IMG/VR virus record: IMGVR_UViG_2718218136_000001
Length of the DNA: 64,000 bases
Direction: 5' to 3' (one strand)
Source: a virus
Lineage: Duplodnaviria > Heunggongvirae > Uroviricota > Caudoviricetes
Notes under the pieces: model-generated
Told to the model about the DNA's origin: nothing
What the model saw: the letters and a program-made list of their open reading frames with translations, nothing else
The model's database searches: none
Made by a program: the position numbers and the translations under genes
Shown here: in pieces, positions 1 to 38,340 of the stretch
Numbering within the stretch: position 1 is the first letter of the stretch
Layout: every line of letters begins with the position of its first letter

Positions 1-7
1 TTAAATG

Positions 8-24
8 ATTGCTCTAATTATTGA
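8..24. promoter_or_regulatory. C1-repressor operator-like 17-mer (ATTGCTCTAATtATTgA)
   Basis: 13/17 match to the P1 operator consensus ATTGCTCTAATAAATTT as I recall it; lies upstream of first ORF. Confidence 0.3.
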
Positions 25-39
25 TATTTATGGTGACAT

Positions 40-351
40 GTGAGAAAGGATTTCAACATCGACGGAAAATATGTATTGCTGTCTGTAAGCACTAATATTC
101 AGTCGCCAGCCGTCATTGTCACTGTAAAGCTGAGCGATAGAATGCCTGATATTGACTCAATATCCGTTGCGTTTCCTGTCAAAAGTATGCGTAGTGCTGA
201 ACATTTCGTGATGAATGCCACCGAGGAAGAAGCACGGCGCGGTTTTGCTAAAGTGATGTCTGAGTTTGGCGAACTCTTGGGTAAGGTTAACAATGTCCTT
301 TCAATCAGTTCAGCAAGGTCCAAAGCGTTAACAGCTTCCATGATGAAATAA
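40..351 (+). CDS. hypothetical protein (103 aa)
   Basis: ORF track; no recognisable motif. Confidence 0.4.
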   Translation: MRKDFNIDGKYVLLSVSTNIQSPAVIVTVKLSDRMPDIDSISVAFPVKSMRSAEHFVMNATEEEARRGFAKVMSEFGELLGKVNNVLSISSARSKALTASMMK

Positions 352-382
352 AAAAAAAGCCTGGCAAGGAGCCAGGCTGCAC
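352..382. terminator. hairpin gcctggc-aagga-gccaggc preceded by A9 (intrinsic terminator when read on minus strand)
   Basis: Stem-loop read directly; U-tract is on minus-strand reading. Confidence 0.4.
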
Positions 383-481
383 AAAAAGAGCGGGTTTGTA
401 TTCCACCATCAATCAAGAAGGAGTATAGCACACAGGTACTGAAGTGAAAAAATGTGATTCGCGATAAACAAAATACCTATC

Positions 482-505
482 ATTGCTCTAATTGATTGCT
501 ATAAT
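482..505 (+). promoter_or_regulatory. operator-like 17-mer ATTGCTCTAATTGATTG (482-498) followed by TATAAT at 500-505
   Basis: 12/17 match to operator consensus; -10-like hexamer adjacent; upstream of ref-like gene. Confidence 0.35.
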
Positions 506-596
506 TGAGCCGCAGTTTTTGTCAACTACGAAGACGTTGCCATTACTTCACTCCTTGACATCATTGGCGGCCATTAGGCCGCCTTTTTTTTGCCAT

Positions 597-1155
597 ATGA
601 AAACAATCGAACAAAAAATTGAACAGTGCCGCAAGTGGCAGAAGGCAGCCAGAGAACGAGCGATCGCTCGGCAACGGGAGAAGTTGGCTGATCCGGTCTG
701 GCGAGAATCTCAATATCAGAAAATGCGGGATACTCTCGACCGCCGTATCGCTAAACAGAAAGAGCGCCCACCAGCCAGCAAAACGCGGAAAAGCGCGGTA
801 AAAATAAAATCTCGTGGCTTGAAGGGGAGAACACCAACGGCGGAGGAACGGCGCATCGCCAATGCTCTTGGCTCTCCCCTGCATTGCCTGCTATATGCAT
901 GGAGTAATATCTAATGAGGTGTCTCTGCACCATATCGCCGGTCGTACCGCGCCGGGTTGTCATAAAAAGCAATTGCCACTTTGTAGATGGCACCACCAGC
1001 ATGCAGCTCCGGCTGAAGTAAGAGAAAAATACCCATGACTGGTCCCTGTTCATGCCGATGGTGTGGTTGGAGGCAAGAAAGAATTCACCTTGCTGAACAA
1101 GTCAGAGATGGAGTTACTGGCTGACGCCTATGAAATGGCAAACATCATGCACTAA
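597..1155 (+). pseudogene. ref: Ref-like RecA-dependent HNH nuclease, disrupted (one frameshift near 885-905 and in-frame TGA at 1036-1038)
   Basis: ATG at 597; basic N-terminal region, then in a second frame the HNH motif ...CIACYMHGVISNEVSLHHIAGRTAPGCHKKQLPLCRWHHQH...; span of 559 nt is close to a ~186-codon gene; gene name from recalled P1 map position. Confidence 0.5.
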
Positions 1156-1316
1156 TAAATATATTATTTTTAATGATAAATGATTGACAACTGACAAGTG
1201 ACTTCAGTCAGAATCATCACACGCCCGGTACGGATGGATCCCTTTTCAAATATTCCATGGACGGCACAGTCTGAGTACCGGGCGCTACCTTCAGTTGTAT
1301 TGCTAAGCCGCCGCTG

Positions 1317-1762
1317 GTGGCTTTTCTTTTTTGTAGGGGCGCTATGGATAAGAAAATATGCGTTGTTTCAATGAGCGTCGGCAAACCGGCGTCAATGACT
1401 GCTGCATGGATCAACAATGAGCTGATCATGGCTGAGCGGACCAGCTACCCTGAACGCCCCGCGATATGGAACTCCAGCTGCTGCGAATTGCGAGAAAAAG
1501 AGGAAAAGGGTTTTATCGTGCTGGTGGAAAGGAAAACAGCTTTATTACCGGTCGAGTTGGCCAGCGTGTAAGGTTGCGTGATCCCTTCATGAACGGCAGA
1601 CCGGTACTGATTGAAGCAATGCAGATTTACAAGGAATTGGAACGCCAGAAAGCGATCAAGTTACCGCGCAATCCGGCAAATACATCCTTCACCAAAGCAT
1701 CTTCGATTCCGAACACGATAAAAAAGGCGATGAATTTTTCAACATCAACTGGAGCGAAATAA
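1317..1762 (+). other. two overlapping ORF fragments in different frames; possible disrupted gene of unknown function
   Basis: ORFs 1317..1571 and 1466..1762 overlap in different frames; no motif recognised. Confidence 0.2.
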
Positions 1763-2031
1763 CGAGAACATGTTCTGACGTTACTATGTTGCTTTGCGAC
1801 GGAATACAACAACGTTGCCAGCGCCGACTACATCAGGGCAATGGCTGGAGAAGTTGAGGCCCGCCAGGAGCCATCGTTACTAAGCCCTCTGATTAACAGA
1901 ATTCGCGGAACCCAAACGCTGGCACAAAAACGGGTGCCGAAAGGGGAATTAACAGGAAAAGGAAATTATCTATAAACGTCAATGCATTAGGGTATACTTC
2001 TCCATAGAACTATAAGTAAATGGAGTAAGTA

Positions 2032-3185
2032 ATGAGCGAATATGTTGAGTTAGCATACGCTGCCGCTACAAGCAGGCTTTGTCTATTTACCGGGACTGGC
2101 TTTTCAAAGGCAGTCTCGAACGGCGAAGCACCAACGTGGAAAGAACTATTAAAAAAAGTTTGCAGCAAAGTTCACAACGCCAAACAGTTGGAAGACACGT
2201 TATTCCCTGATGATAAACCACCAGCACTGAGTCTTGAAGAAGCCGCACAAATACTATCTTTGAAGCTCAACATTGAAGGCAAGTCGATTTATGATGAAAT
2301 TGTTGACATCATATCTCCAATACAACTTGGCGAAGATATATCAAATATAAAGGATTTTTTTCAAAAAAGAACATTTCGTGTCATTACAACGAATTATGAC
2401 AAGTTAGCTGAATACTTAACTGGAGATGAGGAGGTTCAGTCTATTACCCCAGGCTTACCTATTCCTAAATATCCCTCCAAAGTTAAAATATATCATGTCC
2501 ATGGTTCTATTGACTCTCACAAAACATGATTGTTACATCAGAAGACTATTTTAGGTTTATAAACTCCGACACTTATTCTCTCGAAAACTTAGCACGATGC
2601 TGCATGAAAATACAGTTGCGATATTAGGCTATTCTTTAAGCGACACGAACCTAAAAGCAATTATAAATGATTACAAAATATTCTCGAAAGGTAACACTCT
2701 GTGCTCTAATATATTTTTCATCTCTCGCAGTGAAGTAAGTCAAGATATGAAGGATTATTATTTTTATTGTTTTGGAATACGAGTAATTGACAACACCGAA
2801 ATAGACTCTTTCTTTAAGAGATTGAGCATTAACATAATGTTAATTGAAGGCGTCATAGCAAGAGCCAGACAAAGTATAAAAAGAGTTTTATCAGGCACTT
2901 TTAACTATAAGGATGAATACATTAGATTAGAAGATTCATTCTATCAAATAACTTCCTCGATTATATGAGGGTTTCGACTGGAATGACGGACAAGTAGTTG
3001 ATTTTTTCAAGAGAATAATAAAAAAAAAGAGACTTAACAAGAGAGAGTGGTGCTTGGGAGCAATACGAGCAGCTTGCAAAATGGCTTATATATTTCGGCA
3101 GCCTTTAGAAATTGGTGGAACTAAGTATGAAAATGAATATTTAGACGCCGTTGAATACTCAATGTCCAACATGAGCAAAGAATGA
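2032..3185 (+). pseudogene. SIR2-like (sirtuin-family, defence-associated type) protein, reading frame broken at least three times
   Basis: Motifs LFTGTGFS, ITTNYD, HVHGS (frame 1), then IVTSEDYFRF (frame 0, 2526 onward), then ILGYSLSDTNL (frame 2, 2597 onward), then a further frame to stop at 3183-3185; good SD (ggag) 8 nt before ATG 2032; region clearly more AT-rich than flanks by eye. Confidence 0.6.
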
Positions 3186-3381
3186 GATTAGGTTATTCGT
3201 GGCATGCTTATAGAGCTTGGGAAACAAGATGGTCCACAATCATTGCTTCAAATCGATTAATAATAAAAAACGCATCGAAGAAATTGGCGTACTGGAGGAT
3301 GCTAATTCTATAGTAAAAGATATAGTGTAATTGAAGAGCGGCAAAAATTTAACGGGCAGCTACAACTGCCCGATATATAAA

Positions 3382-3624
3382 TCAATCCGCATTCAGGAGC
3401 AATGCGTTATCTATGATGATCTGCTCCCATTCTTCGAATGCCCGGTCGCGGACGCCCTGGGGAACGCTGTTAGTTTTGAAATCGACGACCGTACGCCATT
3501 TCCCGTCCGGACGGTACATGCGCAGAGCTTTACTTCCCCCTTCCCTGCGCACCTCAACGTTATGCTTATCAGCAAACTCTTGTAATGCTCGTAGCGTCCC
3601 ATGCTTGTAGTATCGCTTTTTCAA
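3382..3624 (-). CDS. small basic protein (80 aa), TTG start; possibly Lxc/Bof-like C1 co-repressor by position and size
   Basis: ORF track; start TTG overlaps stop of upstream 40-aa ORF (TTGA); identity by recalled size/position only. Confidence 0.4.
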   Translation of the reverse strand: MKKRYYKHGTLRALQEFADKHNVEVRREGGSKALRMYRPDGKWRTVVDFKTNSVPQGVRDRAFEEWEQIIIDNALLLNAD

Positions 3625-3743
3625 GTTTTCTCTCCAGCCTGTGCCAAGGCTTCAACTTCCAAATCGTAAGACTCAAACTCATAGTCCTGGTCGTCAACTT
3701 CTTCAGGCACTGGCAGTAAATGCCAGGCTGTATATCTGACCAT
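3621..3743 (-). CDS. small acidic protein (40 aa: MVRYTAWHLLPVPEEVDDQDYEFESYDLEVEALAQAGEKT)
   Basis: Hand translation of minus strand; stop overlaps TTG start of the downstream gene. Confidence 0.3.
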   Translation of the reverse strand: MVRYTAWHLLPVPEEVDDQDYEFESYDLEVEALAQAGEKT

Positions 3744-3782
3744 TATCAAAACGCCCTGGCTGTAGAGCGTCGCGGCTATGAG

Positions 3783-4053
3783 TGTTAGCGCCGGGCGGTC
3801 ATAACGGTAAATTTGCGAACGTCACGGTCAACGAGACGACCGAAATTACCATAACCGCGCTCCAGTAATAATTTTTTAATTTCCGGCCAGTATGGACCAT
3901 AGCTGCGGTACAGGCGGGGATTTTTCAGTAATCGCCCGCGTAGCCCTGACAGAAGAAATCAACGTATTCGTCTTCTGTCTTTCCTAACAACGCTGTACGG
4001 AGTACCGCCTCAAGATATGTTTTATTCGGTTTTATTGTATCAGATAGTGTGGC
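3783..4053 (-). pseudogene. small ORF (~90 aa) interrupted by one frameshift (MATLSDTIKPNKTYLEAVLRTALLGKTEDEYVDFFCQGYAG / RLLKNPRLYRSYGPYWPEIKKLLLERGYGNFGRLVDRDVRKFTVMTARR)
   Basis: Hand translation of minus strand in two frames; ATG at 4053. Confidence 0.3.
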
Positions 4054-4089
4054 CATATTATGCGACGCCCGGCGAACCGGGCGCTCCTG

Positions 4090-7000
4090 TTATGCGTATT
4101 GTTGGATGACGGCCAGAACGTCCGCCACGTTGTGTTTTGTCTCGATAATCCACCAGTTACCCGGGAAATCGCTGTTCTTCGCCTTCGCTGGCAGCCAGCG
4201 AGCGCCGAATTTCGCCTTGATTGCGTCTTTCGCACGGAAAAGAACGCCTTTCATGCCTGAGGCTTCCTGAAGCCCAAATACCTCGCCAGCGGCGAATTTT
4301 GGTGCGTACATCATCTTCAGGTCGGCGGTGGATACGCGATAATTCAGACCAAGAGACTGAGCTATGCTGGTGGCATCACCCTGTATTGATGATAACTCTT
4401 CTTGTTTCTCGTTTCTGGCGGCAATTTCTTCCTCCGTGATGTTGCCAAGGGCCAGGTTTATCCGATCAGCGTCGGCCTGTTCTCTTCATCGGTGCGCCCG
4501 GCAAGAACCGTGTTAATTCTCTGCAATATCTCCACATGATTCTTGCGCATGCTGAGCAATTCCGGCGTAACCTCGTTAAGATCCACCAGCCCAAGGATGG
4601 CAAGGTCGGAAAACATTGATACCAGGTTGTAGGTCATGCGATAGCTGAGTTGGCCATAGGCTGATGGCAACTGCACCGCATCCATTTGATAGGCATCCAT
4701 AAATTTAGAGCCGTCGTTTACGACATCCGCAATTGCAGGTGTGATTTTCCCTGTGGTGGCGGCCTCCCTGATTGCTGTTACCCATGATTGAGTCAGTGCG
4801 GCGACTGCATGATTCAGATTGGCTTCCCGTTCTGCTGCGATGCGCGCGCTTGCTGAGTCCATTGCCTGCTTGATCTCGGCTTTATTGCTGTAAATGCCAA
4901 TGGTGCCAAACTGTGCTGTGGTGATCTCATAATCTGACGCCCGGAACTCATGGGTACCGAAAATGGCATTGGTGACCTCAAGTTCAGAATCCCCGTTACG
5001 AGTAGCCCCCTGGCTTGTTTTCTCCGGCATTTTTGCGATCGCATCCGCTATTTTCTCCTGAATTACTTCAGGGATAGCGTATCTCCGTATGACGCGATTA
5101 CATCGCCATAATTGGAGCCAAACAATTCAACCAGGAATGTTTCTGCGAACGGATCTGGCGGTTATTCCCTTCCGACATCATACCAAGCACCCATTTTGCA
5201 ATTGACGACTTCAGCGCGCCGTCACGGCGATCCGGGTAAACCGCATGCTTCAGTGGGGCCGTATAGGAACCAACAAAATCAATGCTATAGCCTGACTCTG
5301 TAGTCTGAACGCCGTATGAGTCAGTGATTTTGATCATGCCGCGCTGCTGGAAACGGTAGAAATCGTCACAGGAAATGATGTCGTTAATCCCGGCGATGGA
5401 GACGCCACCACTGATTTTCTGCATAACAGCATCTTCATCGGGAGTTACATCAACCTGTTTATCCAGCGTCTTCACATCCCAGTTACCCGATTTGGTGCCT
5501 TTGAAGGTAAAGATGATCTCCGTCTGCGCGCTGGCTGTCGAAGTCCAGCGACTTAATGCGAACGATATCACCGGCACAATCATAGTATTGGCCTACACGC
5601 CATGAGCGATCGCCGATAACAAGGAACTCATTCGCATGGTTAACCAGATCAGGATCAACATCCAGAATGCCTTTATTTATTGCATCCTCCACCAGCGGGC
5701 GCAGGCGTTTGATATCCGTCGCGGCCTTCTGAGTACGGTTCAATAATTTCTCATAGCGGGAGATGGCCTGAGAGATATTAGCCTTGCGCTGAATGGCGCT
5801 TTTCAACGACGCGCGATACTGTGCTAACAACATACGGTCTGTGTGATGGACGCTACCCCAGCGGGCTTTCCAGTCTGCGTTATCAGCTGCTTTGGCCATT
5901 ACCGCCTGTTTGAATTTGGCGACGTCGGCGGTGGTCTTTTCAAGTTCCGCTTTGCTTCGCTCCAATTCAGCGGTAAGTACCTCCACATCCTCACCAGCTG
6001 CGTGCTGCGCCTTGATGTAGTTCTGAAGGTCGATAGTAGCCTGTTCTTTCTGGCGAGCGCGTTTCGCAGCTTTCGCCTTATCCATTTGAACCTGCATCAT
6101 TACCAGACGTTCGCCGTCATCCTTCGCGGTATACATCTGCATTTCGATCATGTCATTGGCGTCGGCGTTCTCCATTTCTGACTTATCTGAACGGAGGATA
6201 TCGGAGATCCAGCCTGCTTTACGCTTCAGCGTCTTCAGTCGGTATTCATCGAAAGACCCCTTGCCGCAGTAGTAGTGAACGCGAACGCTTGCACGGTTGG
6301 AGCCAACTCGTGCACCGCGACCGTTACGTTGTGCGATACTGGCTGGTGTCCACGGCAACGTCAGGTGGTGGATATCCGTCGTTCCTCGATGCAGGTTGAT
6401 ACCCACCTCTGCCTTTTTGTTGCAGATGATGATCGGAGTCCGGCCCTCCTGGAAGTCGGCTGCAATCTTTTCCAGACCGCCCACGACATTTCATTTTGCT
6501 GCGCGATATAGGCGTCATACAGAGCCATTTGCTCGTTGTATTTCGCTATCTGTGCATCTGTTGGTTCATCCGGTAGCTCTTTCGGCGGTTTAACCGCTTT
6601 CAGTTTCTTACCGGTTTTACCTGCCTCGGCAACCGTCTGAGCATTCAGGATCCCCACCTTTGAAGGTTCAAGGTTTAGAGCATTGCAGATAATGCGCTTG
6701 AGCTTCTGGTGCTGCGTTTTTTCATCGGTGAAGATGATTTGCTTACCTTCCGGGAAAAACTCCTTCAGCGTCGCGATCAGCTTCGCGTATTTCGGCGTAA
6801 CGGGGTGAGTTACGGTCAGTTCGTCAATGCCAAACCTGGCCAGGCGCTTATTCACTTCCTGCTCGAACGCTTCCGGAACCTGCAACTGAATAAACTCGCC
6901 CTTATCTATCAGGGAGTATTGCGATTGCTGCGTGATTGAATCATCACTGTCGTCGTCTTCGCTGGTGGCTTGTTTAGGCAAACTGTCCGCAAAGCTGCTG

Positions 7001-10000
7001 CACCGCATCGGCGTACTCCGGCAGGAAACGATAGGTGATCCGGCGATAGTACAGGTCCATGTCAGTACATACGCGGTCCATATCCCTGATTATTGAGAAG
7101 ATCGGACGGGCTTTCTCGTGCTCAATCACGCCGTCTTCATTGACCGAGGTCGTTACGCCATTGTTGGCTTTGGCCGCCGCTTCCGCCTGCTGACGCAATT
7201 CTTCATACGCCGCCAGTTGTTCTTCAGTAAGTGGTGCATCCTGCTGGTGTTCGTCCAGCTCCGGGATCTCCACGGTATCCTTAACGTCTTCCGCCGTTTT
7301 AAGCGTTACCCAGCGATGGAATATACCGCGCAGCGCATCAAGGTTTTCAAAGCCCACCAGCGCCATTTTCTTCAACTTCACCGCTAATTTTCTGTACCGT
7401 TTCCAGCCTGGTCTTGCCGAAGAATTTAACGAAGTCATCAGGACCGTAGATCCCCATGTTCTGCAGTATTCCTTCGGCAAACATGAGAAAGCATGTTGTA
7501 TGCATCGATCGGGGTGTTAACGACTGGCGTTGCAGTCAGGAGAACCGGCCCGCGCCCGCCATTCTTTTTCATCAGGTACGCGTTTTTAATTGCCATATCT
7601 CGCGCCGATTGCGCCACCGCGCTGGTGGGCAGATAGGCCAGTTGTGACGCTTCGCGACCATTTTTATAGCTATTGCGGTAGTTGTGACCTTCGTCAGCGA
7701 TCACACTATCGAAGCCCATATCCTCAAAGTACGGATACTTCTCTGCTTTTTCGGTGCCGGTATCTGAATACTCCGACAATACCCGGCGACGCGCGGCCTC
7801 TTTGCGGTGGGAGTCGGAGTCCATTGCGCTGGCTACGCGTCCGGCGGCAACGAAGTCATAAAGCATATCCTGTGCATGCTCATCTACGGTGTCATCACGT
7901 AGCGGAATGCGGGCGTATTGTTTTTGGTAAACACGACTGCACGGTAATTTGAGTGCGGATCGCGTTCATCCGCGCCGTGATAGTGGCTTCATCTGCCAGC
8001 TTAAGAGCATCGCGCATAACTGGAGTGCCATCAGTACCAAGAACAGGTTTACCGTTCTCATCGAGCACCGGCACCTGGCGAATCTGATCACCATCCATCA
8101 GCACATCAAGACCGACGAACAGGTAGTTACTGAATGCCTCTTCACTCAGGAATTCTTTTGCTTCGTAATACCAGTTTTCCAGCACTGATTTAGGCACTAC
8201 ATACGCAGTACGGGTGGAGCGACCGTTCTCATAGTTGAACGCCTCAAGCGCCAGCGCGGTCGTGGTTTTACCCAGCCCGGTGCCGAAGCCCAGGATCCGC
8301 GCCCATCTTCGGACAGTCGGCGCACCTCGCTATTCTGGTAATCAAATGGCTGGCGCTTACCGCTTAATCCCTTCAACCCAAGCGGATCGCCAGAGTGTTC
8401 ATACGGGATATTGCTATTGAACACATCGTTGTATTTGGCAACCAGCTCATCGTAGCGATCGTGCGTCTTGATCCACTTATTGAACTGGTCCTCAAGCAGT
8501 GCCATCTGCTCGCGGTAGCCGTTCGCCGTCGCGCTATCTTTGCCACCGATACGCGCACCATTGAGATACTTTTCCAGCTGTGCCGGGAACCCGGTCGCGT
8601 TTTCACCTGATTTACGGTCCCACTGTAGCGGATTCTCGCCTGTTTCTTTATCCTTGCGCTGGACGACACCGTATCGGTGCCCGACGAACAGACCATCACC
8701 ACCGTGATAGGTGTCAGAAACCATTTCGTCGCCTTCCAGCTGCACTGACTGCACATAGCGCAGATCCGGATAGCCGTTTTCCTGCAAAAACTCCAGAATG
8801 ACGGAACGGTCGAACCAACGGCTATTGAGCTTAAACCGGATATTCTCTGCTGGCGTCTTGATGCGCTTCTCTTCGATCGCTGCCAGCTGATTAAGGACGT
8901 TGTTCTTTACTGGACCGTCGGGGAGCGTGGCGAGGAATTCCTGTTTTGGAGCCACTATCTCGTTAATGTCGCCGCTGGTGGCGCGGGCGAACGGAACAAT
9001 CCCGCCATACGGTGAAACCGCAATACCAGGAGTGCTGGCCAATAAATTAAGCAACTCTTCATCACTGGCTGGCAATTCGCCGGTAAACGCAAGGCGGAAA
9101 TCATCGAGCTGGATTGGATCGCGGGTAAGATCGCTATAGAGATAACGCAGGGTGTCCTGATAGCTGGTGGAGTCATAACTGGCGCTGGAATCATGCGTAA
9201 CCAGCTTTCCTGTCAGCTCGTCAGAAATAGTGCCATCCAGCTTAATTGCACCACGGAAAGCAACCAGGCGCGCGCACCGCTTCCCGATAATTAGCTATCG
9301 GACCGCGACCAGGGTTACCAAAACGGTCAATCTCTGCCTGCAAACGGGATACCAGAGAAAGGCGCTGCTGTTCGATTTGTTCAGCACTATGCCCGGCGGC
9401 CTTCATATCCTGATATTCAATTAACATCCGGCCAATCATCGCCCCACGATACAAGCGTTCACGGTATTTTTCAGGCTGGCTGTTAATCCAGTCCACCAGC
9501 GGCACCATATCGTCGCTGATTGATGTGGTGTACTTATCGCGGACATTTGCCATCTGGGTAAATGTCATACCGAGACGGCCTTCTGTTGTAGTCAGGTTAC
9601 GCTGAAGAGCCTCCCAGCTATCCGCGCCATAACTGGCAGCATCAATTTTAAGTTCCTTCCCGGCATCAGCTTCAATCCAGCGACCACCAGCATATTTTGC
9701 CATACGCCATTAATCAGGCGCATTTCCCCTTCACCAACAACGTCTGCGGTCAGTGACGGTTCAGCCATATCGAGCAAAGACCAGTCGATACGGCTTTCGA
9801 AACGATGAATCAGCTTCGCTTTAAGAGCCTGGTTATCAATCTGACCGTCGGCACGAACCTCAATACGCCCCTGGAAGCCCTTTTCCTGGGTGCCATGAAC
9901 AAACCGGCGGCCATCCTTTTCAAACCACTTGCCAGAAATAAACGTTGGCCAAAGCACATTTGCTGATTCAAGAGTGCTTTCATCCACCAGGGAGATTTTC

Positions 10001-10842
10001 TCAGCCATCTCTGCCGGATGTTTGCGCATCAGCACCACATCAACGATTGTACTGGTCCCGTTTGCGTCAAAAGTACCGGTAGGCAAGCGGTGAGCGCCAA
10101 GAAATTCAGCTTTACGGGATAGGCGCAGGCGTAACCGCTTCATGTTTGAACCTGAAACAATGGACGGCGGCACAATCACACACATGAATCCGCCAGGCTT
10201 TATCTTGTCCAGCATGCGGAGCATGAAGTAAGAACCCATGTCCGTTTCTTCTGCGTAAGGCTTATCGATGTTGCGTGTGTTATCACGACCACCGAACGGA
10301 ACGTTACCCACAACATGGTCGAATGAATCGTTAGGCGTGCTTACAGCCAGCTGTTCGAACGGGGAAATCTGTACGCTGTCTTCCGGGTGTAACAGCTGGT
10401 TTATACGACCGGAAACACTGCTGATCTCAGTCGCGGTCATCACCGTACCAACCGGTTTTGTCTCATTAAAAACGCCGGTGCCCGCCGATGGTTCCAGAGT
10501 GTTACCTACGTCCGCGCCGTAGAGCTTCATGATCTCCCAGACACCTTCAGCGATCGGCTTTGGTGTGTAATATTCGGAGACGGACCCGCCAATGCCGCCT
10601 TCACCGGTGTACCCAGCCAGGATCTGGCGCTGTTCATCTGTCAGTGTCGCGCCGTCCACCAGCGAATTAAGCAAATCTATCGCCTTCTGATTCGCCTCCC
10701 GGCGCAGTCGGTCATAGCTTTTGCCTTCCACCTTTTCCACGCCGTATTTAATCGGCGCTCGGTGAGATGTTATTGCCCTAATGTATTTTAATATTTCGCT
10801 GACACTTGAACAGCGAAACACCCCCATAGATAGCTTGTTCAT
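4090..10842 (-). pseudogene. darB: DarB-like giant N6-adenine methyltransferase + SF2/SNF2-type helicase fusion (~2250 codons), fragmented into at least 11 ORF pieces
   Basis: Collinear motifs on minus strand: MTase EPSAGTGVF and VVGNVPFG (9592..10842 piece); Walker A GFGTGLGKTTT (~8262-8290, hand-translated between listed ORFs); DEGH and LLTATPVVNTP (7438..7866); helicase motif VI QRNGRGAR (5483..6484); total span ~6753 nt. Confidence 0.7.
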
Positions 10843-13509
<2,667 letters not shown>

Positions 13510-13639
13510 TCAAAGTTGGCGCACGCAACTTGCCTGTTACCAAGAAATTAAGGAGGTTCCGCAAGCGGCTAACGTCCAGGCACCGCGTGAGACAAGCATC
13601 ATCACGTTTAATAATTCAATCAATCCGTTTAATTGACAC

Positions 13640-13665
13640 CCTCCACGCCCTGACGGGCGTGGAGG
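13640..13665. terminator. GC-rich hairpin cctccacgccc-tgac-gggcgtggagg between convergent genes
   Basis: Read directly; no clear U-tract. Confidence 0.3.
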
Positions 13666-13668
13666 ATG

Positions 13669-14034
13669 TCACGCTGCCTCTTTAATGTTGGCGGCTATCC
13701 ATGCCGCCGTGTGCTGTTTAACCTGGTCCAGGTCGATGTATGTGCCAACATATTGACTCAAATCCTGCAAGGTACCGATAAATGCATCGGTGCTCTGATC
13801 GACGAATTTATCAGCCAGGAAATCAGCAACCAGTTTTGGCACACCATCATGTTCCGAAGGTTGTTTTTCCTCGCCACTACCGCCGCCGGACGCGCCGTAC
13901 CCCATCTGTTGCATGATCTGGTCAATTTCATCGCTGATATCCAGCAACTCCATGCCACTCGCGGTAGCAGCTTTGGACATCAGAGAATCCAACTTGTCGC
14001 TGAGGTCCATTAACTCAATAGCTGATAGTGTCAT
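13669..14034 (-). CDS. hypothetical acidic protein (121 aa), DdrA-like position
   Basis: ORF track; position downstream of DarA-like gene. Confidence 0.35.
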   Translation of the reverse strand: MTLSAIELMDLSDKLDSLMSKAATASGMELLDISDEIDQIMQQMGYGASGGGSGEEKQPSEHDGVPKLVADFLADKFVDQSTDAFIGTLQDLSQYVGTYIDLDQVKQHTAAWIAANIKEAA

Positions 14035-14059
14035 GCAGCTACCCCCGCTTTCTGGATTG

Positions 14060-15949
14060 CTACCAGCAGATCAGCCAGGTGGCGAGCAGCGCCATTAACC
14101 AGCTCTTCGTTTTCCTCAAAACGTCCGGCAGCCTGAAGGGCTGCAATCGCTTCCCGGACATTGCCCGGGCGTTACGGATCTCCGCCATGTCAGTGCTTTG
14201 CATATCCATCATGTTATTGAGATATTCAATGGCTTTATTAGCCTCTGCATCTGCTTCGCTAACCGTTTCATCAGGCTGTGCCGGGGCCGGTTCTGGCTGA
14301 GTAATCTCACCAACTTCGGTCTGCAATGCATTGATCATGCTCTGCACCATTTTCTCGGTGCCAGCGCCACCCGGAAACACAATATTGGGGAAAGTTTTTT
14401 GAAACTGAGTTTTCAGCATTACGCGGAACTCGTCTGGTGAGCTGGTGGCCAGCTCCAGAGCTTTTTGTGCATATTTGCCAAACGGACCATTAGTAAGTGT
14501 CTTCGCCAGGAAGTCGAAAGAATCCTCGCGAGGCAATAACTTCAGGTCGTACTCACTCATTTGCTGATCAGAAAGCGGGGTATCGTAAGTAGCAATGCCG
14601 TAGCGTGCATATTCATAATACGAGTCACCTTCATCAGGGCGCGGCAGAATCGCTTTGTTACCTTCAGGTATTGCGCCAGGGGCCGCCGGACGCATTTGCA
14701 GGGCATATCGATATGCACCTACAGAGACTTCTGGTTCAGGCGAAGAGCTACCGGTATCCTCCGCTGGTTCAGGTTCGACGTTTTCCGGTTTATGTTCTTC
14801 TGGTTGGACCAGATATTCCGATACATTACCCGCTTTATAGGCTTTAAACAGCTTGCCGATCGCATCTGCCATGTCCACACCCTGTATGGATTTAGCCTTG
14901 ATCATGTATACGCTGCCATCCGGATCGGTTAACTGGATATACCCTTCGCCATCCCCAATGAATTGCTTCATTGATGCACCATTACTGAGCGTCGCTTCCC
15001 CGTCCATATGCATACGATTTTTGATACTGACAAGGCGATCCGTCAGCGCGCGAGAGTGCCCACCAGTCATCCCCGCTGGAGCAATGGTATCGCGCCCACC
15101 AGTGCGATTGAGCTGATCAATCTCCGTCTGCAAACTCTCATTCTCTTCATAAAGAGAATCCGCTTCCGATGCAACAGCGTTAATTTTCTGCTCCAGATCT
15201 GCCTTCTGCCCTTCTACCGCTGCCACCTGATCCGCGAAGTCGCTCATGGCATCCTCTTTCTGGTCACTGTCAGCCTGTAGTTGGGTTATTTCATCAACAA
15301 GGGCTTTTTTCTTCTTCTGCGCACGCTGGAATTTTGCCGAGTTTTTCTCTGCAAGGTTGGCAAGTTTCATGGTGACCTGCGCCAGCGTCATATCACGTCC
15401 ACTCATCGGAGCAACGGTGTGAGTAACGTCTTTTTTATTCAGTAAGAACTGGAAAGCAACCAGCGTATCGCTATTGGTGATCCGGTTTTCCGCTGTCGGG
15501 CTATGAAACAAAATGCTGATAGTCTGACCATCACTGAGCGGAATAATGGCTGGCAGGACCGGCAGCCCGTTAACGTTACGTGCCCGACCAATTTCAGCGC
15601 CGCCGATCGCGCGCGAGCCGCTCTGGGCCACATCCCCCGTTTTATCACTCCCCGCAGAGATTCCGGTACCATTCAGCTTCTGGTTCAATGCCCGGACAAA
15701 TGCCTGCATGGTCCGGTGTAACTGCAAACGAGTAGAACTAATCGCCTCCAGTAAATCCGTAGCACACCAGTGGATCGGTGTGTCATAGAAGAACGTAGCC
15801 TCGATTTCCTCCAGGGTGTTGGATTCCGTCATCAGATAGCGGTCCTCACCGGCCATTAATGCGCGATATTCATCATCAGTCACTGGCGGGGGAAGCACGT
15901 CAAGCCCAGGCTTGATCGTCACCCCTTTATTGATATTGAACTGTTCCAT
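14060..15949 (-). CDS. darA: DarA-like head-associated antirestriction protein (629 aa)
   Basis: Size and position in Hdf-DarA operon upstream of holin genes; no catalytic motif recognised. Confidence 0.45.
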   Translation of the reverse strand: MEQFNINKGVTIKPGLDVLPPPVTDDEYRALMAGEDRYLMTESNTLEEIEATFFYDTPIHWCATDLLEAISSTRLQLHRTMQAFVRALNQKLNGTGISAGSDKTGDVAQSGSRAIGGAEIGRARNVNGLPVLPAIIPLSDGQTISILFHSPTAENRITNSDTLVAFQFLLNKKDVTHTVAPMSGRDMTLAQVTMKLANLAEKNSAKFQRAQKKKKALVDEITQLQADSDQKEDAMSDFADQVAAVEGQKADLEQKINAVASEADSLYEENESLQTEIDQLNRTGGRDTIAPAGMTGGHSRALTDRLVSIKNRMHMDGEATLSNGASMKQFIGDGEGYIQLTDPDGSVYMIKAKSIQGVDMADAIGKLFKAYKAGNVSEYLVQPEEHKPENVEPEPAEDTGSSSPEPEVSVGAYRYALQMRPAAPGAIPEGNKAILPRPDEGDSYYEYARYGIATYDTPLSDQQMSEYDLKLLPREDSFDFLAKTLTNGPFGKYAQKALELATSSPDEFRVMLKTQFQKTFPNIVFPGGAGTEKMVQSMINALQTEVGEITQPEPAPAQPDETVSEADAEANKAIEYLNNMMDMQSTDMAEIRNARAMSGKRLQPFRLPDVLRKTKSWLMALLATWLICW

Positions 15950-15950
15950 G

Positions 15951-16562
15951 TTAATTTCCTGCTTTCAGTTGCTTAAGACGACGTTTGAGTTCGCCATTCC
16001 GTGCCTTTTCGTTATTGAGTCGGCCCGTCTCCTTATCCAGCTTCGCCCGCAAATCAGTGATCTGCTGTTGATTGAAAGACACCGAATTCTGCGCGGACTT
16101 ATAAGCGGCAACCACCTGAGCATTCCGCTGTTTTGCTTCTTGCAGGCGCTGAAAGTTGGATTTAACTGCCGGTTTCTTGTCTACCGGATTGGCAACACGC
16201 TTCGCTTTGGCGATCAGTGATTTCTGGAATTTTGCGGAGTTTTTGCGGGCCGCTTGCCCCATGACGGTACCAAGCGTCTTGATATCCGGCGACTGAGCGT
16301 TAGGAATAGCTTTTCCATTCAGCTTCACAGACGATATATCGCCAGTATCGTTTACCTGTATGGCAAGAATTTGTCCGTCGTTAAGAACCAGCTTTGCTGT
16401 TTTAACTTTAACGCCATCTTTCGTTGTTGCGCGGTTGCTGGAGTCAACCTCAATTACCGTAACACCGGTTTTATTGATCGCCGCGATAAGGGATTTCAGC
16501 CCCTTTTCATTAACCTGGTCAAAATCGACCGTTGCATACTTATTTTTCGTCATCTGACACAT
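15951..16562 (-). CDS. Hdf-like protein (203 aa), basic coiled-coil C-terminus
   Basis: ORF track; position. Confidence 0.4.
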   Translation of the reverse strand: MCQMTKNKYATVDFDQVNEKGLKSLIAAINKTGVTVIEVDSSNRATTKDGVKVKTAKLVLNDGQILAIQVNDTGDISSVKLNGKAIPNAQSPDIKTLGTVMGQAARKNSAKFQKSLIAKAKRVANPVDKKPAVKSNFQRLQEAKQRNAQVVAAYKSAQNSVSFNQQQITDLRAKLDKETGRLNNEKARNGELKRRLKQLKAGN

Positions 16563-16983
16563 CCTGTGCGAGATTTATTACGTAACTTCTGCGGATTTGC
16601 TGAGTAACAGGGAAAATCCGATACAACGGGTTAATGAACGAGTCGCCATGCGTAACCATGACGTTGAAATGCCACAGTCGCTCTCCTTTACCCATATATT
16701 CAGTGGGTATGTACAACCATTCACTGTTTTCGCCCTGTTCAGCCGACGTCAGACAACGTTGTTCACCTTCAATCACTGTCGTCGGCTTCTGAACATCGCG
16801 GATCCAATATCTGACCGTTGCGCCGCGCAAAAACGGGAATTTAGACCGGTATTTGAACGGCACCCGGATGAAACCCGGTTTAATTTCCACATCACCAAGT
16901 TCTAAATGCGTGATGTCCTTGCGTTTTAGCAAATAGCGATCGGCTAAGGCTAACGCAAGAACGCATACACCCCAGCCAATCAT
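16540..16983 (-). CDS. lydB: LydB-like antiholin (147 aa)
   Basis: Position immediately downstream of holin, overlapping stop/start. Confidence 0.4.
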   Translation of the reverse strand: MIGWGVCVLALALADRYLLKRKDITHLELGDVEIKPGFIRVPFKYRSKFPFLRGATVRYWIRDVQKPTTVIEGEQRCLTSAEQGENSEWLYIPTEYMGKGERLWHFNVMVTHGDSFINPLYRIFPVTQQIRRSYVINLAQDVSDDEK

Positions 16984-17309
16984 TTCCCGCCTCCCTTTTT
17001 CACCAAACTTGTAAGAACATTCAGAATGCTATCGATATTCACTCGTTTCATCCCTGAAATCACCTCATGACCGTTATTGCTGGCTATCGTTACCATTAAG
17101 TACGTAATTGATAACTCCCAGCCCTCGTGTTGCCCCAATAGGTACGCCACCGCGCCAGCTGTCACTGCAACAAAGATCTCCGTAACCAATCCCAACAAAT
17201 TGCCAGACTGGCGACCGTCTCGGACATCCATCAGGAACGTGCCTATCCCACCAATTACTGAAAGCAGGAGCGCAATAGCAACTGGAGCTAATTCCTGTGT
17301 GTCAAGCAC
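16980..17309 (-). CDS. lydA: holin (LydA-like, 109 aa, hydrophobic helices)
   Basis: Hydrophobic segments VAIALLLSVIGGIGTFL and IFVAVTAGAVAYLLG; small size. Confidence 0.5.
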   Translation of the reverse strand: MLDTQELAPVAIALLLSVIGGIGTFLMDVRDGRQSGNLLGLVTEIFVAVTAGAVAYLLGQHEGWELSITYLMVTIASNNGHEVISGMKRVNIDSILNVLTSLVKKGGGK

Positions 17310-21088: not shown

Positions 21089-24007
21089 TTAAATACTCCC
21101 CGCGTTATACCACGTCCCATTAATGCAATACTGAATTGGCCTTGCCTGAGTTGTATCAATTAATTCATCACGGTTTCCGTTAACTGAACCAGTAACGACA
21201 TAACCTGACCTGTCAGACCAGCCAGGACCATTCCATGTCTGAACAGATGACAGACCGCCAAGGCGAATACCTGTAATAAACCTTGAGTTACATTCTGCCT
21301 GCGTATATGCACCAACATCTCCCGCAGAGGGTTTGCGTGTTGTGGTGTAAAACTCTGACCAGTTAGCTTCAAAGCCATAACCATCACGCGCTGAACGATA
21401 AAAGATACCGCCATTTCTGTAATTCACGCGGAACTGTACAGCAGGGCAACTCCCCGCATTCATATTAAAGTGGAGGATTAATGTCGATGCGCCACTGATA
21501 TCTGCATCATAAACGCCGCTATTCCAGTTCCAGCCAACAGCTTTATCATTTGCGACCCTGCGTCCTGTTTGCCCTAAAGCAAATGCAGGCTGCTGGTTTT
21601 TCGTGTTGTAGTCTCGTCGCCAGCCAGGAGCGTAAGCATCACCATGATTAATATAAGTGAATTGAGCGTTAGTGATTCCGCCACCGCTGGACGTGCTCGG
21701 CGTAGTAACGCGTATGGTCATGGCACCTTTATTACCCATAACCTCAATAACGCAACCTGCAAGATGAATAGTTCCACAGCCAGTATCGGTTATAATTTTA
21801 TTATTGCCGTACGACCATGAACATTTGCACATCCAGTATGGGTGATTGAATGCCCCTTGAGAATCCAGCCATTCAATCAATTGTGCCGTTGTCCAGTTCC
21901 CTGCACCTGTACTAATAGAACTGTGAAAAGCGCGACATGCACCAATATTTTTAGTGAAGGTATCTTTTCCAGGAATATCCGCGCCGTTCTGATTTTTCTG
22001 CAATGACCCAGCGGCTAATTCTACTGTTCGCTCAAGATTTAAATTTTCAACCGTTAGCTCAATATTTTTAGAACCATCAAACGAGACACCGTTGATAGTA
22101 CATGCTGTCTGCAACTTGGTCGCTGTAGCCGCATTACCAGAGGTATCCTGATCCCCTTTGGCATTGACGCCGGGAATTGAATCTTTTGACGTATAGACCT
22201 GCGCCCATTCAGACCAGTTGGCAGAATCAGTATCCCGCCGCGAACGGATATGTACGGGCGCATGGGTACCGCTCGTGCCACTCCAGCCAATGAATAACTC
22301 ACCTTCGCCAGCAGCGGTGGCACCTTTAAGGTGAAGCACATTGCCATAGGGGGAAGGGTAGCCATTGTTGTATGCCTCATACAGCTGAATCCCGGATGTT
22401 CCCTGTGCATTCGCCTCCAGGGCCGTTACGCGACCGCGCGATACCAGAGTATTGATATTAATGTCACCAGAACCATCGAACCTGACGCCATTAATGTTTC
22501 TGGCTGTTTTCAATTTTGTTGCGGTATCGGCGTTCCCTGTCAGCGCCCCGGTGATCCCGCCGTTGAAAGTCTGGCGTGCACTCCATGTGTTAGCCGTGCT
22601 CAACAGGGGGATCTTTTCACCGCTGGTACCGAGTTCTCTTAAACCAAGGTATTGGATAACAGCAAGAACGCTTGTTTTGGCCAGAATATCGCGACCAACT
22701 GACGTTAAGTCAGTCTGAGAAACAGTGTCTGTACCGGTAAAGTACGGCAATTTATTTGCGCCTGTCGCAAGACCAGCAAGCGCGGTTAAAGTTGCATCAA
22801 GTGGCTGTTTCCCTGCCAGCGCATTTGTCATTGTTGTCGCAAAGTTCGGGTCATTGCCCAGTGCTGCTGCAAGCTCATTCAGGGTATCAAGAGCTTCAGG
22901 TGATGAGCCGACCAATGCAGAGATAGCAGCCCGTACGTAAGCAGTCGTAGCGATCTGCGTATTGTTTGTGCCCTGTGCAGCCGTAGGCGCAGTAGGGACA
23001 CCCGTTAATGCAGGGCTTGCCAAAGGCGCTTTGAGAGCCAAGGCATTGTTGATAGTTGTGCTGTAATTCGGGTCGTTATTGATCGCAGCCGCTATTTCTT
23101 TCAGCGTATCCAGTGTGCCAGGCGCACCGTTGATAAGTGCAGTTATAGCTGCCTTAACAAAGGCTGTATTTGCGATCTGCGTGCTGTTTGTACCTTGCGC
23201 TGCCGTCGGCGCGGTTGGCGTTCCTGTCAGACTCGGGCTTTCTATTGGCGCTTTGGTATCAGCCAGATCTTTTATAGACTTAACAGCTTTAGGGGTAGCC
23301 GCCATTGTTTCGCTGTCGCTGTTAGTTGCGCTACTGAGCTGAACTAATCCCTTTTGCGTTGTGCTTGCATCCTGCGCCGTATACTTGCTTTTCGCCAGAT
23401 CGTAGGCTTTTTTAACTGCCAGCGAACTTGCAGCAACATCACTTCTGGTACTGGTTACAGAGTCTGAAATATCAATGCCGATCGTGCGGTTGATACGCTC
23501 GGATGTATCAATCATCTCCTGGGTAATGGCAGATACACCAGCAGGGATATTCACCGTACAAACAAGCAGCTCCCCATCTCCTAACTGATATGAATCGGTA
23601 TAGGTTCTGGCAACAAATTCAGCCGCATGAATATGTGACGCGGTATTCACCTGATAGGTATCTTCTCCAAGGAGGTATCTTCCCTTCAGCACAATTGCAT
23701 ATTTCTTGCCTGCACTAAGTGCAAGAGAAATATCCTTACGTTGCTGAATAGTTACCTGGTAGAATTCACCAATATCCACCGACGCCGCGCCTGCGGTTTT
23801 ATCACCATCCACTGAGGTGATTAACAGGTTCATCCCACCGCCAGGCTTAGGTAAGAAACCGGCATAAAATCCCGGGTCAACAATCCCCCTGAATTTTCGG
23901 TTTAGCGCGGCTGACAGATATGGTTCGTGGTATTGCACATCAGCCACCAGAGCCAACGACTCGGGTGATGGGTAAGTAACTGATGTAACAACTGTAACGT
24001 CATTCAT
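21089..24007 (-). CDS. tail fibre protein (S-like); constant N-terminal part outside, variable C-terminal part inside the invertible segment; likely start MNDVTVV at 24007
   Basis: 1001-aa ORF; repeated collagen-like and fibre motifs; spans right crossover site. Confidence 0.8.
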   Translation of the reverse strand: MNDVTVVTSVTYPSPESLALVADVQYHEPYLSAALNRKFRGIVDPGFYAGFLPKPGGGMNLLITSVDGDKTAGAASVDIGEFYQVTIQQRKDISLALSAGKKYAIVLKGRYLLGEDTYQVNTASHIHAAEFVARTYTDSYQLGDGELLVCTVNIPAGVSAITQEMIDTSERINRTIGIDISDSVTSTRSDVAASSLAVKKAYDLAKSKYTAQDASTTQKGLVQLSSATNSDSETMAATPKAVKSIKDLADTKAPIESPSLTGTPTAPTAAQGTNSTQIANTAFVKAAITALINGAPGTLDTLKEIAAAINNDPNYSTTINNALALKAPLASPALTGVPTAPTAAQGTNNTQIATTAYVRAAISALVGSSPEALDTLNELAAALGNDPNFATTMTNALAGKQPLDATLTALAGLATGANKLPYFTGTDTVSQTDLTSVGRDILAKTSVLAVIQYLGLRELGTSGEKIPLLSTANTWSARQTFNGGITGALTGNADTATKLKTARNINGVRFDGSGDININTLVSRGRVTALEANAQGTSGIQLYEAYNNGYPSPYGNVLHLKGATAAGEGELFIGWSGTSGTHAPVHIRSRRDTDSANWSEWAQVYTSKDSIPGVNAKGDQDTSGNAATATKLQTACTINGVSFDGSKNIELTVENLNLERTVELAAGSLQKNQNGADIPGKDTFTKNIGACRAFHSSISTGAGNWTTAQLIEWLDSQGAFNHPYWMCKCSWSYGNNKIITDTGCGTIHLAGCVIEVMGNKGAMTIRVTTPSTSSGGGITNAQFTYINHGDAYAPGWRRDYNTKNQQPAFALGQTGRRVANDKAVGWNWNSGVYDADISGASTLILHFNMNAGSCPAVQFRVNYRNGGIFYRSARDGYGFEANWSEFYTTTRKPSAGDVGAYTQAECNSRFITGIRLGGLSSVQTWNGPGWSDRSGYVVTGSVNGNRDELIDTTQARPIQYCINGTWYNAGSI
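22051..22647. repeat. right inverted repeat (~597 bp) of invertible segment
   Basis: Reverse complement of 18350-18946. Confidence 0.9.
22634..22659. promoter_or_regulatory. right inversion crossover site (ttctcttaaACC AA GGTattggataa)
   Basis: Mirror of left site; lies inside S coding sequence. Confidence 0.55.
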
Positions 24008-24018
24008 CAAGCATATCC

Positions 24019-24453
24019 TTATGCTGTTGTCGTGTTTATGGCCATAACTGCGGTATATGTTTTGCCCACATACAGCGAGTCTTCCTGGACACAAATAATG
24101 GCGATTGGCTTGTTCTCGTTATCCAGAACAACCAGAGTGTTGAATGGGTAGTTTTTCCCTTCCTGCAACTGGCTTTGATCAAGGTCCATTCGGACAGTAA
24201 TTATCCCGCCTGAGTAGGTTGGGACGAGGTTGATGGTGCAAAATTGACTGGTCAGTTCTGCCAGATCGAAAACCTTTGGCAGTTCTCCAATCTCATAAGT
24301 GCCATCTCCTTTCTTAGTAACCAGTGAACTGGTACCGAAAACGGCCTTGCTGATTAAAAATCGAGAGCCTTTGTTAATGGACGATTCAGCGCGCCGCTGA
24401 TAGTAATAGTCCAACAACTGACTCTTATAGAGGTTTGTTGAGACGTCAGACAT
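24019..24453 (-). CDS. tail-fibre-associated structural protein (R-like, 144 aa)
   Basis: Position directly upstream of S. Confidence 0.4.
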   Translation of the reverse strand: MSDVSTNLYKSQLLDYYYQRRAESSINKGSRFLISKAVFGTSSLVTKKGDGTYEIGELPKVFDLAELTSQFCTINLVPTYSGGIITVRMDLDQSQLQEGKNYPFNTLVVLDNENKPIAIICVQEDSLYVGKTYTAVMAINTTTA

Positions 24454-24531
24454 GATTTTCCCTAATCAATGTTGTGAAGCCTCATTGTAAGAGAAGTAAC
24501 TTGTCACCCCGCCCTGCGGACGGGGTGATTG

Positions 24532-35846: not shown

Positions 35847-35915
35847 CGTTTTCTAAGTGCAAAGAATCACCATTTCGAGCTGGTGATTGAAGGTTGATGC
35901 AAATTTGGAGAAAAA

Positions 35916-36716: not shown

Positions 36717-36745
36717 CAGACGTAGTAAGAACCACCAGCATTGTA

Positions 36746-38322: not shown

Positions 38323-38340
38323 AAATACAAGGGATGACTC

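What the first reader, a model, noticed from the sequence alone, without database searches (positions are those of the whole stretch)
4090..10842. Giant DarB-like methyltransferase-helicase gene broken into 11 or more pieces
MTase and helicase motifs lie in correct N-to-C order along ~6.75 kb of minus strand, but the reading frame changes at least 11 times. Either this antirestriction gene is a decayed pseudogene, or this region has sequence errors. The neighbouring DarA-like operon is intact.
Basis: seen in the sequence. Interest (0 to 1): 0.55.

Follow-up and report, generated by a model that had tools for sequence, protein, structure and literature searches.

The report
P1 darB fragmented by sequencing errors
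This is the well-known phage P1 anti-restriction gene darB; its 17 frame breaks belong to about 50 tiny, record-specific deletions spread over the first 14 kb of the window, which look like sequencing or assembly errors and not gene decay, so the finding is ordinary.

Summary
Window 4090-10842 (minus strand) is darB of a P1-type plasmid-prophage, about 98% identical in DNA to P1. It is interrupted by 17 small indels: 13 one-base deletions, 2 two-base deletions and 2 one-base insertions.

The damage is not specific to darB. Every gene from ref to pro (window ~600-13632) carries private indels, as do the 3' end of darA and the intergenic DNA. That is about 50 events, 92% of them deletions.

Against four short-read sibling assemblies, window 1-10303 shows 39-42 indels but only 3-5 substitutions. 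The remaining 40.8 kb compared (22651-40576 and 41134-64000) shows 1 substitution and 1 indel against another short-read assembly.

Undoing only the 17 indels restores a 2255-codon ORF with no internal stop. Its product is identical, residue for residue, to a protein on record, WP_065749888.1.

None of several hundred related records shares any of the six indels tested. The indels are enriched in homopolymers but not near GATC or CCWGG sites.

Verdict: these are consensus indel errors in a badly polished stretch of the assembly (confidence about 0.9), not a decayed pseudogene. The gene itself is already known. Interest is low.

The parts
4090..10842 (-). darB (P1 defence-against-restriction B; 2255 codons when intact), interrupted here by 17 small indels at 4479, 5070, 5145, 5520, 6482, 6991, 7365, 7463, 7479, 7922, 7956, 8296, 8624, 8633, 9261, 9290 and 9694
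   Evidence: About 98% DNA identity to P1 darB and 99.6% to pCombat11I9-3 darB. Indel list. Repair restores a 2255-aa ORF identical to WP_065749888.1.
9592..10842 (-). The only piece translatable from the native start as the sequence stands: 382 native codons plus 34 out-of-frame codons. It holds the 30-aa capsid-targeting N-terminus and the N6-methyltransferase-like domain (about 9970-10578).
   Evidence: ORF list. Pfam N6_Mtase/Eco57I at aa 89-291. The N-terminal 40 aa are identical to P1.
8114..8349 (-). SNF2/ResIII helicase ATP-binding motif region of DarB (aa 833-911), out of frame with the start as the sequence stands
   Evidence: Pfam on P1 DarB. Coordinates converted using the indel table.
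6302..6489 (-). Helicase_C region of DarB (aa 1455-1517)
   Evidence: Pfam. Coordinates converted.
1..14163 (.). Indel-rich stretch of the record: about 50 private indel events in coding and non-coding DNA alike. Density is about 5.5/kb at 0-4 kb, about 2.8/kb at 4-10 kb and about 0.8/kb at 10-14.2 kb, then essentially none.
3621..4056 (-). ulx (helps DarB localise to the capsid), with 4 private indels
3382..3624 (-). lxc, with one private 6-bp in-frame deletion at 3605
2032..3330 (+). SIR2-family defence gene occupying the place of P1 res/mod, with 7 private deletions
10918..12626 (+). prt (portal protein), split by a 1-bp deletion in a CCCC run at 11624
12619..13632 (+). pro (head processing protease), with two 1-bp deletions in A runs at 13478 and 13544
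13633..13668 (.). Junction of a deletion of about 7.5-8 kb (lydE/lydD, lyz, ssb, hxr, ddrB and a TnpB element are missing). It lies inside the palindromic end hairpin TCCACGCCC-TGAC-GGGCGTGGA of an IS200/IS605-type TnpB element.
   Evidence: No record with a contiguous junction was found.
14031..15949 (-). darA, intact to codon 595, then frameshifted by a private 1-bp deletion at 14162

Best explanation
The locus is the ordinary darB gene of a P1-family plasmid-prophage. DarB is a roughly 250-kDa protein with a methyltransferase-like domain and an SF2 helicase. It is packaged into the P1 head through its N-terminal 30 residues and protects incoming phage DNA from type I restriction (EcoK/EcoB). 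The 17 frame breaks are not biological. They belong to about 50 small, deletion-biased consensus errors confined to the first ~14 kb of the window. That pattern fits a stretch of a long-read or hybrid assembly that was poorly covered or never polished. What is shown: the indel pattern, its confinement to this stretch, its absence from relatives, and exact restoration of a known protein. What is inferred: the technical cause, meaning which platform, low coverage or failed polishing.
For: (1) In window 1-10303, four short-read sibling assemblies (GCA_023599035.1, GCA_035827035.1, Logan ERR3567397 and ERR1880019) differ from the window by 40-42 indel events but only 3-5 substitutions. All four share 39 of those indels.
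(2) The rest of the window is essentially error-free against a short-read assembly, GCA_916160465.1. There are 0 differences in 17,926 bases (22651-40576). There is 1 substitution and 1 G-run indel in 22,868 bases (41134-64000). At the rate seen in the first 10 kb, 158 indels would be expected there (P = 3e-67). Fisher's exact test on indels versus substitutions between the two parts gives p = 8e-14.
(3) Undoing only the 17 darB indels gives 6768 nt and 2255 codons with no internal stop. The product is identical over all 2255 residues to WP_065749888.1/ANW32560.1.
(4) The indels ignore gene boundaries. They hit ref, the mat-like gene, SIR2, lxc, ulx, darB, prt, pro, the 3' end of darA and intergenic DNA. 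All indels in the rest of the window relative to pCombat11I9-3 are intergenic or net in-frame.
(5) The spectrum is 36 deletions to 3 insertions (p = 4e-8), mostly 1-2 bp. Homopolymers of 3 or more bases are enriched, 14/39 against about 15% expected (p = 9e-4). This is the profile reported for gene-fragmenting errors in long-read assemblies (PMC12007338).
(6) The indels are private. None of 575 E. coli records shares any of the 3 events in 7340-7500, and none of 455 plasmids shares any of the 3 in 9240-9720.
(7) Another deposited punavirus record, vB_EcoM-673R5, also has darB split by 1-bp deletions, at different positions. Fragmented darB therefore recurs in deposited P1-type records.
Against: No reads or quality values are available, so the technical cause is inferred and not observed. 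About half of the events are not in runs of 3 or more bases, which is less homopolymer-bound than typical polished nanopore consensus. There is no enrichment at Dam or Dcm sites. The same region ends at a private 8-kb deletion that removes lyz, ssb and ddrB. If that deletion is real, the phage would be defective and darB useless, which is the setting in which decay could happen. One short-read sibling (ERR1880019) does carry a single frameshift in darB (270 + 1984 aa), so real darB frameshifts exist in this lineage.
Confidence: 0.91

Rival explanations
1. Genuine pseudogene decay. The plasmid-prophage lost lyz, ssb and ddrB through the 8-kb deletion and became defective, and darB and its neighbours then accumulated real frameshifts under relaxed selection.
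For: The private deletion between pro and ddrA removes ddrB, which is needed to add DarB to the capsid (PMC9024508), along with the endolysin gene. All genes hit are dispensable for plasmid maintenance. A sibling lineage (ERR1880019) has one darB frameshift in a short-read assembly.
Against: There are 39-42 indels against 3-5 substitutions in 10.3 kb, and in darB 17 indels with no amino-acid change at all relative to WP_065749888.1. From recalled mutation-accumulation work in E. coli (Lee et al. 2012; cited but not quantified in PMC10292909), small indels are roughly tenfold rarer than substitutions. Even at a 1:1 ratio, P(4 or fewer substitutions) = 5e-13. There are no nonsense substitutions. 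About 40 kb of equally dispensable tail, baseplate and head genes in the same window carry no frameshift. Real decayed P1 remnants in chromosomes (LR134247.1, KE136820.1) show large deletions and IS1 insertions while the surviving darB part stays in frame.
Confidence: 0.05
2. A real, localised burst of frameshift mutagenesis: one tract of error-prone repair or recombination-dependent DNA synthesis that ended near the deletion junction at about 13.6 kb.
For: The indels are confined to one contiguous stretch of about 14 kb, and they peter out within about 0.5 kb of a private recombination junction. Break-induced synthesis is known, from recalled work in yeast, to be frameshift-prone.
Against: No such tract has been described in enterobacterial plasmids. 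Indel density is lowest next to the junction and highest 10-13 kb away from it. One event lies beyond the junction, at 14162. The deletion bias and homopolymer spectrum match sequencing consensus error.
Confidence: 0.02
3. The breaks are read through biologically, by programmed frameshifting or by expression as separate subunits.
For: None, beyond the preserved order of the domains.
Against: The 17 shifts are in both directions, at unrelated sequences and without slippery-site patterns. They are absent from all relatives, which encode one 2255-aa protein.
Confidence: 0.005

Closest known systems
Phage P1 DarB (YP_006479.1; NC_005856.1 10469-17236)
   Same: About 98% DNA identity over the whole gene. 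The start and stop are the same, and the N-terminal 40 aa, including the capsid-targeting signal, are identical. The order N6-MTase then SNF2/ResIII then Helicase_C is the same. Synteny is the same: lxc-ulx downstream and prt-pro divergently upstream.
   Different: As written, the window copy carries 17 frameshifting indels.
E. coli 'N-6 DNA methylase' WP_065749888.1 / ANW32560.1 (DarB allele of P1-like plasmids)
   Same: The conceptual product of the window gene, after removal of the 17 indels, is identical at 2255 of 2255 residues.
   Different: Only the indels differ.
Gene-fragmenting indel errors in long-read or hybrid assemblies (e.g. PMC12007338, Kastor)
   Same: Deletion-dominated 1-2 bp errors, enriched in homopolymers, that create false frameshifted pseudogenes. 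The events are private to one record and the ORFs are restored by comparison with references.
   Different: Here the errors are confined to about 14 kb of the 64-kb window and are not spread over all of it. About half are outside runs of 3 or more bases. The platform is unknown.
Genuinely decayed P1 remnants in E. coli chromosomes (LR134247.1, KE136820.1)
   Same: They contain darB-derived sequence next to ulx and lxc.
   Different: Their decay consists of a large deletion fusing a truncated darA (343 aa) region to the last 462 codons of darB, with IS1 copies flanking it. The retained darB part is in frame and 98% identical to P1. There is no scatter of 1-bp deletions.

Membership tests
P1 DarB (defence against restriction B) | N-terminal N6-adenine methyltransferase-like domain | tested here: met
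   Pfam N6_Mtase (5e-10) and Eco57I (9e-8) in the 416-aa first piece.
P1 DarB (defence against restriction B) | Central SF2 helicase (SNF2/ResIII plus Helicase_C) downstream of the methyltransferase domain in one polypeptide of about 2255 aa | tested here: inconclusive
   The domains are present in the correct order at DNA level. As written they are out of frame. After the 17 indels are undone, a single 2255-aa ORF results.
P1 DarB (defence against restriction B) | N-terminal 30-residue capsid-targeting sequence (PMC9024508) | tested here: met
   The first 40 residues are identical to P1 DarB.
P1 DarB (defence against restriction B) | Genomic context: ulx-lxc downstream, prt-pro divergent upstream, in a P1-type genome | tested here: met
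P1 DarB (defence against restriction B) | Protects phage DNA from EcoK/EcoB restriction after packaging into virions | not testable with these tools
   Requires plating efficiency on restricting hosts or virion proteomics.
Naturally decayed pseudogene | Frameshifts accompanied by a neutral load of substitutions, including nonsense changes | tested here: not met
   17 indels, no nonsense codon and no amino-acid change relative to WP_065749888.1. There are 3-5 substitutions against 40-42 indels in 10.3 kb.
Naturally decayed pseudogene | Lesions reproducible in independent assemblies of the lineage | tested here: not met
   Absent from 4 short-read siblings and from 455-575 related records at the six sites tested.
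Sequencing or assembly consensus error | Deletion-biased 1-2 bp events enriched in homopolymers | tested here: met
   36 deletions to 3 insertions. Homopolymers of 3 or more bases account for 14/39 events against about 15% expected.
Sequencing or assembly consensus error | Events fall regardless of coding status or gene, and are regionally confined in the record | tested here: met
Sequencing or assembly consensus error | Low or discordant read support at the sites | not testable with these tools
   The source record and its reads were not found.
   3/48 and 1/48 events lie within 6 nt of a motif, against 4.6% and 2.1% for random positions.

The most novel reading that the evidence does not exclude
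The roughly 50 small deletions are real and were laid down in a single event: a frameshift-prone tract of recombination-dependent repair synthesis across about 14 kb of the plasmid. The tract would be linked to the private 8-kb deletion at the IS200/IS605 hairpin between pro and ddrA. That would be a natural example of clustered indel mutagenesis in an enterobacterial phage-plasmid.
Probability: 0.02. Interest if true: 0.6.

Novelty: already known. Interest (0 to 1): 0.07.

Why it matters
The value is mainly practical. The window should not be read as evidence that a P1-like phage is losing its anti-restriction system. All frameshifted genes in window 1-14.2 kb (darB, ulx, prt, pro, SIR2, mat-like, ref and the darA tail) should be treated as intact until they are re-sequenced. 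The case also gives a simple rule for telling artefact from decay without reads. Compare the ratio of private indels to private substitutions against near-identical short-read siblings, and check whether removing the indels alone recreates a protein already on record.

Tried and rejected
2. Indel positions shared with another fragmented darB record, vB_EcoM-673R5: none, so no systematic hotspot.
3. Finding the source record:
- The exact junction pattern is absent from IMG/VR, the GTDB representative genomes and JGI metagenomes.
- The frameshifted 416-aa DarB fragment and the 629-aa DarA variant are not on record.
4. Looking up the contigs that encode the exact repaired DarB (P0002): the tool turned this away.
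5. Looking up Hdf to reach the closest sibling's pro-ddrA region: the protein is too common (18,014 blocks) and the sibling was not shown.
6. Programmed frameshifting or a split-gene reading: rejected because all relatives encode one 2255-aa protein and the shifts have no common motif.
7. Selection as the reason why only the left part is hit: rejected because about 40 kb of equally dispensable virion genes in the rest of the window are untouched.

Full report
WHAT IS THERE. The window is a P1-type (Punavirus) plasmid-prophage. Window 4000-11000 on the minus strand matches P1 and 18 other punavirus genomes over its full length at 97.5-98.2% identity. It matches hundreds of E. coli and Salmonella P1-like plasmids, best of all pCombat11I9-3 at 99.6%. 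In P1 the matching interval is darB (10469-17236, 2255 codons). It is flanked by ulx-lxc on one side and by the divergent prt-pro genes on the other. The finding's coordinates are exact: ATG at 10842 and TAA at 4090. Pfam places an N6_Mtase/Eco57I domain at aa 89-291, SNF2/ResIII at aa 833-911 and Helicase_C at aa 1455-1517. The first 40 residues are identical to P1. They include the 30-residue capsid-targeting signal defined experimentally in PMC9024508.

The minus strand carries 11-12 ORF pieces. Global alignment to intact darB shows 17 indel events: 13 one-base deletions, 2 two-base deletions and 2 one-base insertions. None is a multiple of three. As the sequence stands, only 382 native codons can be translated from the start.

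THE DAMAGE IS NOT ABOUT darB. I mapped every indel in the window against P1, pCombat11I9-3 and pO26_EH2252_2. Indels where all references agree against the window are confined to window 1-14163. There are 48 loci up to 13640, plus one in darA at 14162.
- Genes hit: ref (1), a mat-like gene (5), a SIR2 defence gene (7), lxc (one 6-bp in-frame deletion), ulx (4), darB (17), the portal gene prt (1), pro (2) and darA (1, replacing its last 44 codons). Intergenic DNA is hit too.
- Density falls from about 5.5/kb (0-4 kb) to about 2.8/kb (4-10 kb) to about 0.8/kb (10-14.2 kb), and then to nothing.
- Beyond 14.2 kb, the only indels relative to references are intergenic, net in-frame within divergent patches, or alignment-end effects. 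All large ORFs there are intact.

DECISIVE COMPARISONS. Exact-protein look-ups recovered sibling plasmids from short-read assemblies.
- Four siblings carry the same C8 allele (GCA_023599035.1, GCA_035827035.1, Logan ERR3567397 and ERR1880019). They match window 1-10303 with only 3-5 substitutions but 40-42 indel events, 39 of them common to all four. Those 39 are 25 one-base, 8 two-base and single 3-, 4- and 6-base deletions, plus 3 one-base insertions.
- One contig of GCA_916160465.1 is identical to window 22651-40576 (0 differences in 17,926 bases). It differs from 41134-64000 by one substitution and one G-run indel in 22,868 bases.
- At the rate of the left part, 158 indels would be expected in that right part (P = 3e-67). 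Fisher's exact test on indels versus substitutions gives p = 8e-14.
- Undoing only the 17 darB indels yields a 6768-nt ORF with no internal stop. Its product is identical at all 2255 residues to WP_065749888.1/ANW32560.1. With P448Q it is identical to WP_250303035.1.
- None of 575 E. coli records shares any of the three indels in 7340-7500. None of 455 plasmids shares any of the three in 9240-9720.

INTERPRETATION. A lineage separated from its siblings by about 0.03% substitutions cannot plausibly have gained about 50 real indels in 14 kb and essentially none in the 40.8 kb compared elsewhere. From recalled mutation-accumulation work in E. coli (Lee et al. 2012; cited but not quantified in PMC10292909), small indels are about tenfold rarer than substitutions. 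Even at parity, the observed 4 or fewer substitutions have P = 5e-13. Selection cannot explain the distribution either, because about 40 kb of equally dispensable virion genes are untouched.

The spectrum is 36 deletions to 3 insertions (p = 4e-8), with homopolymers of 3 or more bases in 14 of 39 events against about 15% expected (p = 9e-4). That is the spectrum described for gene-fragmenting errors in long-read assemblies (PMC12007338). Another deposited punavirus genome, vB_EcoM-673R5, likewise has darB annotated in four pieces because of 1-bp deletions at different positions.

I therefore conclude, at about 0.9 confidence, that the breaks are consensus errors in a poorly covered or unpolished stretch of the source assembly. 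The technical cause itself is inferred, because no reads were available.

WHAT GENUINE DECAY LOOKS LIKE. Chromosomal P1 remnants recovered in passing (LR134247.1, KE136820.1) keep only the last 462 codons of darB, in frame and 98% identical to P1. That piece sits next to a truncated darA and is flanked by IS1. Decay there means large deletions and insertion sequences, not a scatter of 1-bp deletions. One short-read sibling (ERR1880019) has a single darB frameshift. Real single lesions therefore do occur, but not 17 without any substitution.

HOW THE GENE WORKS (established knowledge; PMC9024508). DarB is the last of six Dar proteins loaded into the P1 procapsid, at roughly 40 copies per virion. 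Loading depends on its N-terminal signal and is helped by Ulx and DdrB. DarB is believed to enter the cell with the DNA, and it protects that DNA against EcoK/EcoB type I restriction. Nothing in the window suggests a departure from this.

RESIDUAL UNCERTAINTY. The window lacks about 7.5-8 kb present in all relatives between pro and ddrA: lydE/lydD, lyz, ssb, hxr, ddrB and a TnpB element. The junction lies inside the palindromic end hairpin of an IS200/IS605-type TnpB element. In relatives that element sits either next to pro (pRHB17-C14_2) or next to ddrA (pCombat11I9-3, EH2252). No record with this junction was found.

Contig-length arithmetic weakly suggests the deletion may be real. The 82,207-bp GCA_916160465.1 contig would end at the invertible tail-fibre segment (about 17.4 kb in window coordinates) only if it carries the same deletion. 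This assumes its unseen arc has the length seen in pCombat11I9-3. It is an inference. If the deletion is real, the phage lacks its endolysin gene and ddrB. That still does not explain the indel spectrum.

Noticed in passing
window 13633-13668 (junction between pro and ddrA): About 7.5-8 kb present in all relatives is missing: lydE/lydD, lyz endolysin, ssb, hxr, ddrB and a TnpB element. The junction sits inside the palindromic end hairpin (TCCACGCCC-TGAC-GGGCGTGGA) of an IS200/IS605 TnpB element, which relatives carry either beside pro or beside ddrA. No public record searched has this junction. It could be a real hairpin-mediated deletion or a misassembly.
   Followed up: partly
window 14162 (darA, 14031-15949, minus strand): darA has a private 1-bp deletion. 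Its product is native to residue 595 and then has 34 out-of-frame residues (629 aa against 639 aa), so the DarA operon is not strictly intact as written.
   Followed up: yes
window 10918-13632: The portal gene prt (1-bp deletion in a C run at 11624) and the head protease gene pro (two 1-bp deletions in A runs at 13478 and 13544) are also frameshifted. Both are essential virion genes.
   Followed up: yes
window 2032-3330: A SIR2-family NAD-dependent deacylase (defence-type) gene occupies the place of the EcoP1 res/mod genes of P1, as in pO26_EH2252_2 and the sibling plasmids. In the window it carries 7 private deletions.
   Followed up: partly
window 22651-64000: This part is virtually identical to contig CAJZPC010000021.1 of assembly GCA_916160465.1: 0 differences in 17,926 bases, then 1 substitution and 1 indel in 22,868 bases. 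That assembly probably holds the same plasmid and could serve as the truth set.
   Followed up: partly
window 43778: The only indel in the well-matched part of the window: a G run of 5 against 6 in the sibling contig, in an intergenic region between the ORFs ending at 43681 and 43926.
   Followed up: no
window 40: The c8 start codon reads GTG where all relatives have ATG. Two other private substitutions (1899 and 9501) are also changes to G. The one at 9501 (Q448P in DarB) is shared with WP_065749888.1, so it is probably genuine.
   Followed up: partly
L002 (ON470615.2, phage vB_EcoM-673R5), darB region: This deposited phage genome has darB annotated in four pieces because of four 1-bp deletions at positions different from those in the window. 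A likely error of the same kind exists in a public record.
   Followed up: partly
L043 (KE136820.1) and L044 (LR134247.1), about 10,600-13,740: These are chromosomal P1 remnants. A truncated darA (343 aa) is followed by the in-frame last 462 codons of darB, then ulx and lxc, with IS1 copies flanking the block. They are examples of genuine decay by large deletion.
   Followed up: partly
L029 (Logan ERR1880019) and L031 (ERR15823409): These short-read siblings have darB called as 270 + 1984 aa (a 1-bp difference at window-equivalent 10076) and a shortened SIR2 gene (366 aa). They are possible real single frameshifts in this plasmid lineage.
   Followed up: no
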